A stretch of 64,000 bases of DNA from assembly GCF_009914755.1 (NCBI RefSeq), contig NC_060939.1, one strand, 5' to 3'. Made by a program: the position numbers and the translations under genes. Below are positions 3,100 through 9,160 of the stretch, in pieces; position 1 is the stretch's first letter; every line of letters starts with the position of its first letter. The notes under the pieces are model-generated. The model searched no databases and was not told the origin of the DNA. It saw only the letters and a list, made by a program, of their open reading frames with translations. This DNA is from the human T2T-CHM13v2.0 reference genome, Homo sapiens.

Positions 3100-3453
3100 T
3101 CGAATCAGTCCACATCCTAGCATCAAGCAGATGGCACATGGCAAAGGGGTAATTGAGGAAACTTCAATGAAGGAACTCTTTACAAAGCAAGATCAGGGAA
3201 GCAATAAAGAAAAGGTGAAGCACCTTGGGAAAAGCAGAAGTGGGAAGTTAGTATCAGCCTTAGTGAGGAAGAGGGTGGAACTGGCGAAGAATTGCCCTCA
3301 CCTATGAAAGCTGGGGGCTGTAGAAGGACTACCCACCAGGAACTGCAGCCTTAGGTCACGTAGCCACTGCCAAACAATGGCTTCGCAAGGAGGGAGGTTG
3401 AGGAATAAATACCACATCTCTTTCACTTGCTAACTTCTTACTAACTTACTAAA
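3100..3453 (-). mobile_element. Old ERVL/MaLR-class solo LTR, left part (split by L1PB1)
   Basis: cagatggcacatggcaaaggggtaattgaggaaacttcaatgaaggaactctttacaaag resembles LTR33/LTR41/MLT1-type LTRs; continues at 8988-9160. Confidence 0.5.
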
Positions 3454-3454
3454 T

Positions 3455-6400
3455 TCTTCTTTCAAATTTTTTTTTATTTCCATTGATTTTGGAGGGAACA
3501 GGTAGTATTGGTTATATGAGTAAGTTCTTCAGTGGTGATTTGTGAGACTTTGGTGCACCCATCACCTGAGCAGTATACACGGAATCCAATTTGTAGTCTT
3601 CTATCCCTCATCCCCCTCACACCATTTCTCCTGATTCCCCAAAGACCACTGTGTCATTCTTATGCCTTTGCATCTTCATAGCTGAGCTTCCACTTACGAG
3701 TGAGAACATACAATGTTTGGTTTTCCATTCCTGAGTTACTTCACTTAGAATAATAATCTCCAGTTCCATCTAGGTTGCTGTGAATGCCATTAATTTGTTC
3801 CTTTTTATGGCTGAGTAGTATTCCATTCCATATAGATATATCACAATTTCTTCATCCTCTTGTTGATTGATAGGCTTTTGAGCTAATTCCATATTTTTGC
3901 AATTGAGAATTGTGCTGCTATAGACAGGCATGTGCAAGTATCTTTTTCGTATAATGACTTCTTTTCTCTGGGTAGATACCCAGTAGTGTGATTGCTGGAT
4001 CAAATGGAAGTTCCACTTTTAGTTCTTTAAGGAACCTCCACACTGTTTTCCATAGTCGTTGTACTAGTTTATATTCCCATCAGAAGTGTAAAAGTATTCT
4101 CTTTTCACTGCATCCACACCGACATCTATTTTTTTTTAATTACAGCCACTCTTGCAGGAGTAAAGTGGTATCACATGGCAGTTTTTATTTGCATTTCCCT
4201 GATCATTAGTGATGCTAAGCATTTTTTCATATGTTTGTTGGCAATTTGTATATCTTCTTGTGAGAAATGTCTATTCATATCCTTAGCCCACTTTTTTGAT
4301 GGGATTGTTAATTTTTTTCTTGCTAATTTTTTGAGTTCCTTGTAGATTCTGGATATTAGTCCTTTGTTGGATGTATAGATTGTGAAGATATTCTCCCATT
4401 CTGTGTGCTCTCTGTTTACTCTGTTCCTTTTGCTGTGCAGAAGCTTTTTAATTAAGTCCCACCTATTTATCTTTGTTTTTGTTGCATTTGCTTTTTTGGG
4501 GAGTTCTTGGTCATAAAGCCTTTGCCTAAGCCAATGCCTAGAAGGGCTTTTCCAATGTTATCTTCTAGAACTTTTATAGTTTCAGGTCTTAGATTTAAGT
4601 CCTTGATCCATCTTGAGTTGATTTTTGTATAAGGTGAGAGATGACAATCCAGTTTCATTCCCCTACCTGTGGCTTGCCAATTATCCAGCACCATTTGTTG
4701 ACTAGGGTGTCCTTTCCCCACTTTATGTTTTTATTTGCTTTGTTGAAGGTCAGTTTGCTGTAAGTATTTGGGCTTATATATGGATTCTCTATTCTGTTCC
4801 ATTGGTCTATGTACCTATTTTTATGCCAGCACCATGATATTTTGGTGACTATGGCCTTATAGTATAGTTTGAAGTCAGGTAATGTGATGCTTCCAGATGT
4901 GTTCTTTTTGCTTAGTCTTGCTTTGGCTATGCAGGCTCTTTTTTGGTTCCATATGAATTTTAGGATTGTTTTTTCTAGTTCTGTGAAGAATGATGGGAAT
5001 ATTTTGGTGGGAATTGCATTGAATTTGTAGCTTGCTTTTGGCAATATGGTCATTTTCACAATATTGATTTTACCCCTCCAGGAGCATGGGATGTGTTTCC
5101 ATTTGTTTGTGTCTTCTATGTTTTCTTTCAGCAGTGTTTTGGAGTTTTCCTTGTAGCAGTCTTTCACCTCCTTGGTTAGATATATTCCTAAGTATTTAAT
5201 TTTTTTTGCAGCTAACGTAAAGGGTGTTGAGTTACTGATTTGATTCTCAGCTTGGTCCTTGTTGGTGTATAGCAGAGCTACTGATTTGTGTACATTAATT
5301 TTGTATCCTGAAACTTTGCTGAACTCGTATATTAGTTCTAGGAGCTTTTTGATGGAGTCTTTAGGGTTTTGTAGGTATACGATCACATCATCAGCAAACA
5401 GCAATAGTTTGACTTTTTCTTTACTGATTTGGATGCCATTTATTTCTTTCTCTTGTCTGATTGCTCTGACTAGGACTCCCAGTTCTGTGTTGAATAGAAG
5501 TGGTGAGAGTGGTAATTCTTGTCTTTTCCAGTTCTCAAAGGGAACATGTTCAACTTTTCCCCATTCAGTATTATGTTGGCTGTGGGTTTATGTAGATGGC
5601 TTTTATTACATTAAGGTATGTCCCTTGTATGCCAATTTCGCTGAAGGTTTTAGTCATAAAGCGATGCTGGATTTTGTCAAATACTTTTTCTGCATCTATT
5701 GAGATGATCATGTGATTTTTGTTTTGAATTCTGTTTATATGGTGTATCACATTTATTGCTTTGCATATATTAAACCATTCCTGCATCCTTGATATGAAAC
5801 CCACTCAATCATGGTGGATTATCTTTTTAATATGCTGTTGGATTCGGTTAGCTAGTATTTTGTTAAGAATTTTTGCATCTGTGTTCATCAGGGATATTGG
5901 TCTGTAGTTTTCTTTTTTTGTTATGTCTTTTCCCGGTTTGGGCATTAGGGTGATGCTGGCTTCTTTGATGATTTAGGGAGGATTTCCTCTTTCTCTATGT
6001 TGTGGAATAGTGTCAATAGGATTGGTACTAATTATTCTTTGAATGTCCAATAGAATTCAGCTGTGAATCCATGTGGTCCTAGAATTTTTTTGTTGGTAAT
6101 TTTTTGTATTACCATTTCAATCTTGCTGCTTGTTATTGGTCTGTTCAGGGTTTCTAATTCTTCCTGATTTAAACTGGGAGGGTTGTATATCTCCAAGAAT
6201 TTATCCATCTCCTCTAGGTTTTTTAGTTTATGTGCACAAAGGTGTTCGTAGTAGCCCTGAATGATCTTTTGTATTTCTGTGGTGTCAGTTGTAATATCTC
6301 CCATTTCGTTTCTAATTGAGTTCACTTGGATTTTCTCTCTTCTTTTCTTGGTTGATCTTGCTAATGGTCTATCAATTTTATGTATCTTTTCAAAGAACCA

Positions 6401-8980
6401 GCTTTTTGTTTCATTTATTTTTGTATTGTATTTTTTTGTTTCAATTCATTTAGTTCTGCTCTGGTCTTGGTTATTTCTTTTCTTCTGCTGGGTTTGGGTT
6501 TGGTTTGTTCTTGTTTCTCTAGTTCCTTGAGGCATGACCTTAGATTGCCTATTTGTGCTTTCTTAGACTTTTTGATGTAGGCATTTAAGATTATGAATGT
6601 TCCTCTTAGCACCATCTTTGCTGTATCTCAGAGGTTTTAATGGGTTGTGTCACTATTATTGTTCAGTTCAAATAACTTTTTAATTTCCATCTTGATTTCA
6701 TTATTGACCCAATGATCATTCTTGAGCAGGTTATTTAATTTTCATGTATTTGCATGGTTATGAAGGTTCCTTTTGGAGTTGATTTCCAATTTGATTCCAC
6801 TGTTGTCTGACAAAGTACTTGATATAATTTAGATTTTCTTAAATTTATTGAGACTTGTTTTGTGGCCTATCTTGGAGAAATTTCCATGTGCTCATGAGTA
6901 GAATGCATATTCTGTGGTTATTGGTTAGAATGTTCTGTAAACATCTATCAGGTTCATTTGTTTTAGGGTATAGTTTAAATCTGTTGTTTCTTTGTTGACT
7001 TTCTGTTTTGACCTGCCTAGTGCTGTCAGTGGAGTATTGAACTTCCCCACTATTATTGTGTTGCTGTCTATCTCATTTCTTAGGTCTAGTAGTAACTGTT
7101 TTATAAATTTGGGAGCTCCAGTGTTAGATGCATCTATATTTAGGATTGTGATATTTTCCTGTTGGACAAAGCCTTTTATCATTATATAATGTTTCTCTTT
7201 GTCTTTTTAAACTGCTGTTGCTTTAAAGTTTGTTTCATCTGATATAAGAATAGCTACTCCTGCTTGCTTTTGGTGTCCTTTTGCATGGAATGTCTTTTTC
7301 CACCTTTTTACCTTAAGTCTATATGAGTCCTTATGTGTCAAGTGAGTCTCTCGGAGGCAGCAGATAGATAGATACTTGGCCGGTGAATTCTTACTGATTC
7401 TGCAATTCTGTATCTTTTAAGTGAAACATTTAGGCCATTTACATCCAATGTTAGTATTGAGATGTGAGGTACTATTCCGTTCATTGGGCTATTTGTTGCC
7501 TGAATACCTTGTTGTTGTTTTTTTAATTGTATTTTTGTTTTATAGGACCCATGAGATTCATGCTTTAAAGAGGTTCTATTTTGATGTGTTTCCAGGATTT
7601 GTTAAGAGATTTGGAGCTCCTTTTAGCAGTTCTTGTAGTGCTGGCTTGGTAGCAGCAAATTTCTCTCAGCATTTGTTTGTCTGGAAAAGATTGTATATTT
7701 CCTTCATTTATGAAGCTAAGTTTCACTGGATACAAAATTCTTGGTTGATAATTGTTTTGTTTAAGGAGGCTGAAGATAGGGCCCCAATCCTTTTTAGCTT
7801 GTAGGGTTTCTGCTAAGAAATTTGCTGTTAATAAGATAGTTTTTTTTAATAGGTTACCTTTTGCTTTTGCCTCACAGCCCTTAAGATTCTTTCCTTCATC
7901 TTGCCTTAGATAACCTGATGACTATGTGCCTAGGTATTGAAGTTTTTGTGATAAATTTCCCAGGTGTTCTTTCAACTTCTTGTATTTGGATGTCTAGTTC
8001 TCTAGCAAGGCCAGGGAAGTTTTCCTCAATTATTTCCCCTAAATATGTTTTCCAAACTTTTAAATTTCTCTTCTTCTTCAGGAATGCCAGTTATTCCTAG
8101 GTTTGGTCATTTAACATAATCCCAAACTTCTTGGATAGTTTGTTCATTTTGAAATCTTTTTAAAGTCTTTGTTGGATTGGGTTATTTCAAAAACCTTGTC
8201 TTCCAGCTCTGAATTCCTTTCTTTTGCTTGTTCGATTCTATTGCTGAGACTTTCCTGTACATTTTGCGTTTCTCTAAGTGTGTTCTTTATTTCCTGAAGT
8301 TGTGATTTATTTTTATTTATGCTATTTCACTGAAGATTTCTTCCCTCACATCTTGTATCATTTTTTTTTTTTAATTTTCTTAAGTTGGAGTTCACTTTTC
8401 TCTTGTGCCTCTTTGATTAGCTTGATAATCAACCTTCTGACAATTCAGGGATTTCTTCTTGGTTTGGCTCCATTGCTGGTGAGCTTGTATGATTTTTGGG
8501 GGAGTGTTAAAGAACCTTGTTTTGTCATATTACCAGAATTGTTTTTCTGGTTCCTTTTCATTTGGGTGGGCTATGTCGGAGGGAAGATCTGGGGATCAAG
8601 ACTGCTGTTTATATTCTTTTGGCCCATGGGTTGTTCCTTTGATGTAATACTCTCCCCCTTTTCCTAGAGATGTGGCTTCCTGAGAGCTTAACTGTAGTAA
8701 TTGTTATTTCTCTTCTGGATCTAGCAGATTCCTGGGATGTGAACTATCTTCAGGTCTCTCAGCCATGGATACCAGCACAGTATTTGGGCTGTCTCCCAGG
8801 TCCTGCAACAACAATCCACTTCCTTCAAAGAGTCTATGAATTTTCTTAGCTTTCCTAGTATATTCCTGCAGTAGTTCTTGGAGCAAAAGTTCACAATGTG
8901 AGTCTCCACATGCTGCTCTGCCCATATGAGTTGGATCTGCAATTTAGTCCTGCCTCCTATCCGCCATTTTTTCCTACCCC
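3455..8980 (-). mobile_element. L1PB1-like LINE-1 with both termini, decayed ORF1/ORF2 and a shortened 5'UTR
   Basis: L1PB1-type 3'UTR (ggaacaggtagtattggttatatgagtaagttcttcagtggtgatttgtgaga); ORF2 peptides in the ORF track incl. LFADD RT motif (4655-5404); L1PBa-type 5' end (tagtcctgcctcctatccgccat ~8945-8967); TSD tcttactaactt(a)ctaaa at 3436-3453 and 8988-9004. Confidence 0.93.
3700..7484 (-). pseudogene. Disrupted L1 ORF2 (endonuclease / reverse transcriptase)
   Basis: Frameshifted fragments: 6925-7182 (EN, IIVGKFNTPL), 6415-6615, 6032-6325, 5571-5804, 4655-5404 (RT, FADD), 4467-4721; end coordinate approximate. Confidence 0.85.
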
Positions 8981-8987
8981 TTCTTTC

Positions 8988-9160
8988 TCTTACTAACTTC
9001 TAAACTGATTATGCCACAATTTGTCTGAACCCAACTAATAGCCCAAGGCAAGGGAGATTGGTTAAAGTAGTCTTTAGGGTTGGTCTCCTAGGACATAGAG
9101 TGGGATGCAGAAAACTGATGAACAGACCTGGAGGGGAAAAGAAAGAATAAACAGCACATT
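8988..9160 (-). mobile_element. Old ERVL/MaLR-class solo LTR, right part
   Basis: ctgaacccaactaatagcccaaggcaaggga...acctggaggggaaaa...cagcaca resembles an old LTR terminus; resumes directly after the L1 TSD. Confidence 0.5.

What the first reader, a model, noticed from the sequence alone, without database searches (positions are those of the whole stretch)
8700..8980. L1PB1 that appears to have been spliced before integration (SpIRE-type, older family)
Seen: the element has its 5' terminus, 3' tail and a ~17-bp TSD but is only ~5.5 kb, with ~0.4 kb upstream of ORF1. On the sense (-) strand the junction at 8779/8778 reads CCCAAATACT|GTGCTGGTATCC. As I recall the L1PBa 5'UTR consensus, CCAAATACT is followed by GTGAGT (splice donor) and G(C/T)GCTGGTATCC is preceded by CAG (acceptor), roughly 1 kb apart, so the missing piece would be an exact GT-AG intron. 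Known: spliced integrated retrotransposed elements (SpIREs) from 5'UTR splicing are described for young L1PA families. Inference: L1PB, with an unrelated 5'UTR, underwent the same promoter-removing splicing, so this may be a recurring feature of L1 5'UTRs.
Basis: partly seen in the sequence, partly recalled or inferred. Interest (0 to 1): 0.8.

Follow-up and report, generated by a model that had tools for sequence, protein, structure and literature searches.

The report
Spliced copy of an old LINE-1
This is a 5.5-kb LINE-1 copy whose RNA lost a roughly 955-base intron from its leader before it was copied back into the genome, and about a hundred other old LINE-1 copies carry the same splice scar.

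Summary
A minus-strand LINE-1 (window 8981-3439, 5,543 bp) has a 20-bp target-site duplication (18/20; 0 of 2000 shuffles), an A-run, and a 420-nt leader reading CCCAAATACT|GTGCTGGTATCC at 8779/8778.

Long relatives in the same genome continue past that point with GTGAGT. About 955 nt later they have a pyrimidine tract and CAG before G[T/C][G/A]CTGGTATCC (AG in 23 of 26 loci). The missing piece is therefore an exact GT-AG intron.

The junction 20-mer occurs 100 times at up to 2 mismatches (control 2), at loci with different flanks. Two further junction classes use the same donor and other pyrimidine-tract/CAG acceptors, at about +410 (16 copies) and +660 (12 copies).

Copies with this junction do not form one lineage (AU test p about 1e-50). 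This copy is closest to unspliced copies (87%). A single autonomous short-leader subfamily is therefore rejected, although this copy and three close spliced relatives could share one spliced source (p 0.41).

This is a SpIRE-type element in an older family. Larson 2018 found none in L1PB, using an L1.3 probe. The name L1PB1 and loss of promoter activity were not testable here.

The parts
8982..9001 (-). 5' target-site duplication (AGAAGTTAGTAAGAGAAAGA), preceded by ...CAGTTT
   Evidence: Local alignment with the 3' flank gives 18/20 identical; 0 of 2000 shuffles reach the score.
8779..8981 (-). Exon 1 of the leader (203 nt): the 5' terminus with ...AAAATGGCGGATAGGAGGCAGGACTAAATTGCAG, ending in ...GGAGACAGCCCAAATACT at the former splice donor
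   Evidence: Unspliced relatives L090, L091, L109, L110 and L112 carry the same terminus motif, and so do 21 of 30 junction-A loci.
8767..8788 (-). Exon-exon junction CCCAAATACT|GTGCTGGTATCC (break at 8779/8778). The GTG is ambiguous between intron start and exon-2 start.
   Evidence: The 20-mer is found 100 times at up to 2 mismatches against 2 for the control. Donor and acceptor context comes from unspliced copies.
8562..8778 (-). Exon 2 part of the leader (217 nt). It carries the sub-group marker GAGAGACCTGAAGA and is about 50 nt shorter than in other junction-A copies.
   Evidence: The ATG lies at +217 here, against +252 to +272 (mostly 265-267) in 28 other junction-A loci.
7565..8561 (-). 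ORF1 remnant: conserved ATG at 8561-8559, frame broken after 38 codons, and a C-terminal dsRBD-like domain at 7565-7921
   Evidence: the ATG context is conserved in A and U loci; PF17490, E 9.1e-25.
4655..5587 (-). ORF2 remnant holding the reverse-transcriptase domain. This is the longest stop-free stretch, 310 codons.
   Evidence: PF00078, E 1.1e-13.
3439..3475 (-). A-run (3475-3467) followed by a 28-nt A-rich degenerate tail
3419..3438 (-). 3' target-site duplication (AGAAGTTAGCAAGTGAAAGA)

Best explanation
The element is a retrotransposed copy of a spliced LINE-1 RNA, that is, a SpIRE-type element from an old primate L1 family with a long leader.

Full-length members of this family have a leader of about 1.4 kb. 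It holds a GTGAGT donor about 195-200 nt from the 5' end and at least three acceptors, each a pyrimidine tract followed by CAG, at about +410, +660 and +955 nt.

Transcription started at the family's normal 5' terminus. The spliceosome joined the donor to the +955 acceptor. The L1 machinery then reverse-transcribed the shortened RNA into this AGBL1-intron site by target-primed reverse transcription, leaving a 20-bp duplication and an A tail.

The same splice happened repeatedly in several sub-lineages of the family. It produced about 100 genomic copies with this junction, plus about 28 copies that use the other two acceptors.

Shown here: the junction, the splice-site context in unspliced relatives, recurrence at independent loci, polyphyly of the spliced copies, and the insertion hallmarks.

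Inferred: that the splice happened in RNA, that the removed 955 nt held promoter elements, and that the copy was therefore transcriptionally crippled on arrival.
For: (1) Donor. I counted by hand the first 100 listed exact matches to the 18 bases that end exon 1:
- 79 continue with the intron; 55 of those 79 read exactly GTGAGT.
- 9 read GTGCTGGTATCC (junction A, as here).
- 8 read CTGGGAGG... (junction B).
- 3 read CAGC...GCAAGAC (junction C).
- 1 has a small deletion.

(2) Acceptors, in 30 unspliced loci:
- A exon-2 start is preceded by AG in 23 of 26 placed loci. Intron length is 920-974 nt in 24 of those 26.
- B is preceded by AG in 20 of 23 placed loci, behind ...cccttttctttcacag.
- C is preceded by AG in 26 of 29 placed loci, behind ...cacccccatcccccacag.

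(3) Recurrence:
- Junction A: 31 exact, 37 one-mismatch and 32 two-mismatch matches, against 2 for the control.
- Junction B: 16 matches; junction C: 12 matches; controls 0.
- The 5' flanks of all 30 fetched junction-A loci differ, and 21 of the 30 start at the family's 5' terminus.

(4) Not one lineage:
- AU test with all 27 junction-A rows held together: lnL 378.5 lower, p about 1e-50.
- The 23 junction-A rows outside this copy's group held together: p 6e-5.
- This copy's best identity is 87%, to the unspliced copy L091. It sits in a 98-99* set of 4 unspliced and 4 spliced copies.

(5) The junction is found in three sequence backgrounds:
- ACACCCC/CCCACAGA, which covers most copies.
- ACAGCCC/CCTGAAGA, which includes this copy. 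Of 23 exact matches to its exon-1 end, 19 are unspliced, 3 are junction A and 1 is unclassified.
- A background whose exon 2 starts GCA: 6 copies at up to 1 mismatch.

(6) Insertion hallmarks of this copy: TSD 18/20, an A-run, and TTT|A at the target.
Against: No RNA evidence exists for so old a family, so splicing is inferred from DNA scars alone.

The exon -3..-1 bases (ACT) are a poor match to the usual donor exon side.

GTG occurs both at the intron start and at the exon-2 start. A 3-nt microhomology deletion would therefore give the same join at a single locus.

About 1 in 5 of the 5'-intact copies are spliced (21 of 100; 4 of 23, counting one unclassified). This is roughly ten times the 2% reported for L1PA1-6. 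It leaves room for some spliced copies having themselves been source elements. For the four spliced copies of this copy's own group, one common origin is not rejected (p-AU 0.41).

The unspliced and spliced samples were each picked by exact matches to short words and taken in chromosome order, not at random. 10 long or gappy rows were dropped before the AU tests.
Confidence: 0.85

Rival explanations
1. The short leader is the native 5'UTR of an autonomous subfamily. One ancestral deletion or splice founded a lineage that went on retrotransposing, and this element is an ordinary full-length member of it.
For: - About 100 copies share the junction, a high share of the family.
- 21 of 30 fetched copies start at the normal 5' terminus, so exon 1 may retain start-site signals.
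- The four spliced copies nearest to this one can be held as one clade (p-AU 0.41).
- Small spliced-only pairs appear in the tree with support 85-92.
Against: - One clade for all 27 junction-A copies is rejected (p about 1e-50). It is also rejected for the 23 outside this copy's group (p 6e-5).
- No alignment column separates spliced from unspliced copies. Every state that is the majority among spliced copies is also present in 24-40% of unspliced copies.
- The junction is found in three backgrounds, each with many unspliced members.
- An intron cannot be regained, so unspliced copies nested among spliced ones imply separate origins.
Confidence: 0.1
2. A genomic deletion occurred after insertion, or the reverse transcriptase jumped templates, between two GTG microhomologies. 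Splicing was not involved.
For: GTG is present at both edges, so the join is compatible with a 3-nt microhomology event. Deletions unrelated to splice sites do occur in the family: unspliced loci L036 and L052 keep the donor but have the ORF1 ATG only 478 and 639 nt downstream.
Against: - The same base-exact join is seen at about 100 loci with different flanks.
- Both edges carry full splice signals.
- Two further deletion classes start at exactly the same base and end exactly behind other pyrimidine-tract/CAG sites that lack any GTG microhomology: their exon starts are CTGGGAGG and CAGC.
Confidence: 0.03
3. The short form is ancestral, and the long form arose when about 955 bp were inserted into it.
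For: None beyond the bare length difference.
Against: - In an unrooted tree, holding all long forms together is the same split as holding all junction-A forms together, and that split is rejected.
- Junction B and C copies retain nested 3' parts of the 955-nt segment while sharing the same 5' edge.
- The segment is bounded by GT...AG with splice-site context.
Confidence: 0.02

Closest known systems
SpIRE97/622, SpIRE97/790 and SpIRE97/853 (intra-5'UTR spliced integrated retrotransposed elements of L1PA1-L1PA6; Larson et al. 2018, PMC5860796; passages read)
   Same: - L1 copies that lack a leader segment bounded by a GT donor and an AG acceptor.
- One shared donor with several alternative acceptors.
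- Many independent insertions with TSDs, A tails and endonuclease-type target sites.
- Present across successive sub-lineages.
- Acceptor use appears to shift with sequence changes in the leader.
   Different: - The family is different and older. Campitelli 2022 (PMC9252281, passage) describes the leader of L1PB3-L1PB1 as unique, and Larson's L1.3-derived probe found none in L1PB.
- The donor sits about 195-200 nt from the 5' end rather than at 97, and the intron is about 955 nt.
- The share of 5'-intact copies that are spliced is about 20% in my samples, against about 2%.
- Loss of promoter activity has not been shown for this family.
SpIRE97/976 (5'UTR/ORF1 SpIRE; Larson et al. 2018)
   Same: It arises from the same donor-sharing logic and is retrotransposed from a spliced RNA.
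   Different: That class removes the ORF1 start and yields a defective ORF1p. Here all three acceptors lie upstream of the conserved ORF1 ATG, so the coding regions were not touched by the splice.
Processed pseudogenes (retrocopies of spliced cellular mRNAs)
   Same: An intron-less DNA copy of a spliced RNA, inserted by the L1 machinery with a TSD and an A tail.
   Different: Here the template is the L1's own RNA, acting in cis, and the lost intron lies in its leader.

Membership tests
SpIRE (spliced integrated retrotransposed element) | An L1 copy that lacks an internal segment whose edges, in unspliced relatives, are a GT donor and an AG acceptor | tested here: met
   Donor GTGAGT follows ...AAATACT (55 of 79 unspliced rows read exactly GTGAGT by my hand count). 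The acceptor is AG in 23 of 26 placed loci, behind a pyrimidine tract. The junction in the window is exact.
SpIRE (spliced integrated retrotransposed element) | Hallmarks of L1-mediated insertion: TSD, 3' A tail, endonuclease-type target | tested here: met
   TSD 18/20 over 20 bp, with 0 of 2000 shuffles as good. A-run at 3475-3467. The target reads ...GTTT|AGAAG. Only this copy was tested; the 3' ends of the other loci were not fetched.
SpIRE (spliced integrated retrotransposed element) | The same junction at multiple independent insertion sites | tested here: met
   100 matches at up to 2 mismatches against 2 for the control. All 30 fetched loci have different 5' flanks. Pairwise identity to this copy is about 73-78%.
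SpIRE (spliced integrated retrotransposed element) | Generated repeatedly from unspliced sources rather than by one self-propagating lineage ('dead ends') | tested here: inconclusive
   One origin for the whole class is rejected, and starred branches force at least 5 changes of the label. For this copy's own four-member group, however, a shared spliced source is not rejected (p 0.41).
SpIRE (spliced integrated retrotransposed element) | The splice is seen in L1 RNA, and the spliced leader has reduced promoter activity | not testable with these tools
   There are no expression data or reporter assays for this extinct family.
No repeat library is available here. Pfam confirms only that the element is a LINE-1. 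End branches of about 0.10-0.12 substitutions per site fit an old primate family.

The most novel reading that the evidence does not exclude
In this extinct L1 family, splicing of the leader was a major fate of the RNA rather than a rare accident. About one in five 5'-intact copies are spliced, and acceptor choice tracks sub-lineage: the +955 acceptor dominates in the GTG/CCCACAGA and CCTGAAGA backgrounds, and the +410 acceptor in the GCR background. Some spliced forms, possibly the four-copy group that includes this element, may still have been able to retrotranspose. If so, SpIREs would not always be dead ends, and the heavy loss to splicing could have contributed to the replacement of this leader type during primate L1 evolution.
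Probability: 0.3. Interest if true: 0.7.

Novelty: new member of a known kind. Interest (0 to 1): 0.55.

Why it matters
SpIREs have been described only for L1PA1-L1PA6, and all of those use one donor inside a RUNX3 site of the young leader (Larson 2018, passages read). That study reported none in L1PB, but it searched with a junction probe taken from L1.3.

The same anatomy is found here in an older family whose leader is described as unique: one donor, several acceptors, many independent insertions, and recurrence across sub-lineages. It is also about ten times more frequent in my samples. This suggests that splice sites are a recurrent liability of L1 leaders, whatever the leader sequence.

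It also provides about 128 dated natural experiments on how changes in the leader shift splice-site choice.

There is a practical consequence too. Copies of this family annotated as 'full-length' with a short leader are not a separate subfamily and should not be used to model its 5' end.

Tried and rejected
- Khan et al. 2006 could not be opened under a recalled PMC id or its DOI. Its 5'UTR alignments were not seen; I saw only what Larson 2018 and Campitelli 2022 say about it.
- Three full-text searches found no paper describing spliced L1PB-type copies (one search failed on a word format). The nearest was a CREM-exon/L1PB1 chimera in the Cell Genomics 2026 / bioRxiv 2025 paper, which is a different event. 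Supplements were not opened, so Larson's S1 tables were not checked.
The shorter version pushed spliced copies out of the first 100 rows, because my leading letter excluded A. It served only to show that unspliced acceptor contexts are abundant (789 matches).
- In one search the trailing Ns were trimmed, so the contexts had to be fetched separately.
- I looked for columns that separate spliced from unspliced copies and found none that are private.
- One copy (L095) has exon 1 followed by sequence that matches nothing in my loci or in the window. It remains unclassified.
- The 'other' row (…ACT|GTACCGCAGAAG) reads like an unspliced copy with a small deletion in the intron start. I judged this by eye only.
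- L111 had no placeable +955 acceptor and was left out of the trees.
- No splice-site scoring program was available, so site strength is judged against the textbook consensus only.
Full report
WHAT IS IN THE WINDOW

On the minus strand there is a LINE-1. Pfam finds the L1 ORF1p dsRBD-like domain at 7565-7921 (E 9e-25) and a reverse-transcriptase domain at 4655-5587 (E 1e-13). 3 of the 5 frames I scanned gave no family. All frames are broken; the longest stop-free stretch is 310 codons.

The element runs from 8981 to 3439, which is 5,543 bp. It is flanked by AGAAGTTAGTAAGAGAAAGA at 9001-8982 and AGAAGTTAGCAAGTGAAAGA at 3438-3419. These are 18 of 20 identical, and 0 of 2000 shuffles of the 5' flank score as well. 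The 5' copy is preceded by ...GTTT. That fits the TTTT/A-type endonuclease target quoted in Larson 2018. The 3' end has a 9-base A-run (3475-3467) and then 28 A-rich bases before the duplication.

The leader is 420 nt. The family's conserved ATG context (CCCAAATGA[G/A]AAGGAACCAG...) is at 8561-8559. The only correction is that the duplication is 20 bp with two mismatches, not about 17 bp.

THE MISSING PIECE IS A GT-AG INTRON

I searched the window's own genome for the 18 bases that end exon 1, followed by free positions. This gave 807 matches at up to 2 mismatches (reversed control 122). I counted the first 100 listed rows, all exact matches, by hand:
- 79 continue with an intron-like sequence; 55 of these read exactly GTGAGT, usually GTGAGTGCCC[A/C]AACT.
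- 9 continue GTGCTGGTATCC, as in this element (junction A).
- 8 continue CTGGGAGG[T/C]GG (junction B).
- 3 continue CAGC..GCAGCAAGAC (junction C).
- 1 looks like an unspliced copy with a small deletion.

I then fetched 30 unspliced loci (L031-L060). In 26 of them the exon-2 start of junction A could be placed:
- It lies 920-974 nt after the donor in 24 of the 26, and 1,027 and 1,289 nt after it in the other two.
- It is preceded by AG in 23 of the 26, behind a pyrimidine-rich stretch such as cacccccctgccacctccaccagaacag.

TWO MORE JUNCTION CLASSES SHARE THE SAME DONOR

Junction B has 16 genomic matches and junction C has 12, at up to 3 mismatches, with controls of 0. Mapping them onto the unspliced loci gave:
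- B's exon 2 starts about 410 nt after the donor, behind ...cccttttctttcacag. AG precedes it in 20 of 23 placed loci. One miss is a one-base offset in my motif placement and one is a spurious placement.
- C's exon 2 starts about 660 nt after the donor, behind ...cacccccatcccccacag. AG precedes it in 26 of 29 placed loci.

There are thus three deletion classes. All start at the same base in front of GTGAGT, and each ends exactly behind a pyrimidine tract plus CAG. B and C have no GTG microhomology. This is what splicing predicts, and it is not what DNA deletion or template jumping predicts.

All three acceptors lie upstream of the ORF1 ATG. The ATG is 1,187-1,241 nt after the donor in most unspliced loci and 252-272 nt after the junction in junction-A loci. 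The full leader is therefore about 1.4 kb and the spliced leader about 0.46 kb. This copy has lost a further 50 nt or so.

IS THE JUNCTION UNIQUE TO THIS LOCUS, OR A SUBFAMILY?

The junction 20-mer has 31 exact, 37 one-mismatch and 32 two-mismatch matches in the genome (control 2). The 30 fetched loci:
- are only 73-78% identical to this copy;
- have unrelated 5' flanks;
- in 21 of 30 cases start at the same ...ATGGCGGA... terminus as the unspliced copies; the other 9 are truncated or disrupted within exon 1.

These are old, independent insertions, so a locus-specific deletion is excluded.

To test for an autonomous short-leader subfamily, I aligned 200 nt of exon 1 plus up to 1,150 nt from the exon-2 start for spliced and unspliced copies.
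- No column is private to the spliced copies (on the first 79 of these rows and only 560 nt from the exon-2 start).
- In trees (FastTree, 86 rows; IQ-TREE quick, 76 rows after dropping 10 long or gappy rows) junction-A copies are interleaved with unspliced, B and C copies.
- Starred branches force at least 5 changes of the junction-A label.
- The AU test rejects all 27 junction-A rows as one side of a branch (lnL 378.5 lower, p about 1e-50). In an unrooted tree the same test rejects 'all long forms are one clade', that is, the idea that the long form arose by insertion.
- The 23 junction-A rows outside this copy's group are also rejected as one clade (p 6e-5).

THIS COPY'S OWN SUB-GROUP

This element carries GGAGACAGCCC at the end of exon 1 and GAGAGACCTGAAGA early in exon 2.
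- The exon-2 variant has 575 genomic matches at up to 2 mismatches. Many of them appear with the unspliced acceptor context in front.
- Of the 23 exact matches to the exon-1 variant, 19 are unspliced, 3 have junction A (this copy, L026, L113) and 1 is unclassified.
- In both trees this copy lies in a 98-99* set of four unspliced copies (L090, L091, L110, L112) and four spliced copies (L006, L023 = this copy, L026, L113). Its best identity, 87%, is to the unspliced L091.
- Junction A also exists with a GCA exon-2 start: 1 exact and 5 one-mismatch matches.

Junction A therefore arose in at least three backgrounds.

One caveat applies. The four spliced copies of this copy's group can be held together without significant loss (p-AU 0.41), and I named that group after seeing the tree. 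I therefore cannot say whether this element is a primary spliced insertion or the progeny of a spliced source.

MECHANISM AND ITS LIMITS

The best reading, with confidence 0.85, has four steps:
1. Transcription started from the family's normal start.
2. An intron of about 955 nt was removed from the leader.
3. The spliced RNA was inserted into the AGBL1 intron by target-primed reverse transcription.
4. The copy then decayed. End branches of about 0.10-0.12 substitutions per site fit an old primate family.

That the removed segment held promoter elements is only an analogy with L1PA (Larson 2018, abstract and passages). The retained terminus has an ATGGCGG motif which, from memory, resembles the YY1 site at the 5' end of young L1s.

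The share of spliced copies in my samples is about 20%: 21 of 100, and 4 of 23 in the sub-group if the unclassified copy is counted. Larson reports about 2% (131 of 6,609) for L1PA1-6. This could mean very efficient splice sites, or some amplification of spliced forms. I cannot separate the two.

COMPARISON WITH WHAT IS KNOWN

Larson 2018 defined SpIREs in L1PA1-6 and stated that none were found in L1PA7-17, L1PB or L1MA. Their search used a 100-nt junction probe from L1.3. Such a probe cannot detect a splice in an unrelated leader.

Campitelli 2022 notes that L1PB3-L1PB1 have a unique 5'UTR. Three full-text searches found no description of spliced copies in L1PB-type families. The nearest hit is a host-exon/L1PB1 chimera.

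I therefore rate this as a new member of a known kind. The mechanism and anatomy are the same as for SpIREs. The family, the splice sites and the frequency are new.

The label L1PB1 itself could not be tested, because no repeat library is available here. Khan 2006 could not be opened, and no supplements were read.

Noticed in passing
L066 (C3:91.6 Mb), L068 (C6:57.46 Mb), L069 (C6:61.69 Mb): Three junction-B copies are nearly identical, with end branches of 0.012-0.016 against a median of 0.11, and form a 100* clade. They look like copies of one insertion spread by later segmental duplication near centromeres. If so, the 16 junction-B matches stand for fewer insertions.
   Followed up: partly
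Loci L031-L088; exon-2 start and the +410 acceptor: Acceptor use seems to track sub-lineage. 9 of 14 junction-B copies have a GCR exon-2 start, 4 have GTG and 1 has GTA. Junction A is 68 GTG against 6 GCA at up to 1 mismatch. Unspliced copies with a GCR start mostly have ...cccttttctttc.cag at the +410 acceptor, whereas many GTG-type copies have a more interrupted tract such as ccatacttgctttcacag. This parallels Larson's finding that changes in the leader shift splice choice.
   Followed up: partly
window 8562-8778 (-): This copy's exon-2 leader is about 50 nt shorter than in other junction-A copies: the ATG is at +217 against about +266, and the alignment gap follows ...CCCAGGAATCT. This is a separate, later deletion with no splice-site context.
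   Followed up: partly
L036 and L052: Two of the 30 unspliced loci keep the GTGAGT donor but have the ORF1 ATG only 478 and 639 nt downstream. These are internal deletions of the intron that do not coincide with the splice sites, which makes them a useful contrast to junctions A, B and C.
   Followed up: no
L095 (C6:144,712,810-144,712,867): Exon 1 ends at the donor position and is followed by sequence that matches nothing in the fetched loci or in the window. It could be a fourth acceptor further downstream, a chimera with another RNA, or a later insertion.
   Followed up: partly
window 3439-3466 (-): Between the A-run and the 3' TSD lie 28 A-rich bases (TTTGAAAGAAGAATTTAGTAAGTTAGTA) that partly repeat the TSD motif (AGTTAGTAAG). 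This may be a decayed tail or a small duplication at the insertion site.
   Followed up: no
L027/L028 (chrX, 94 kb apart) and L084/L085 (chr7, 97 kb apart): Two pairs of spliced copies of the same junction class lie within 100 kb of each other, yet neither pair forms sister rows in the tree. They appear to be separate insertions rather than local duplications.
   Followed up: no
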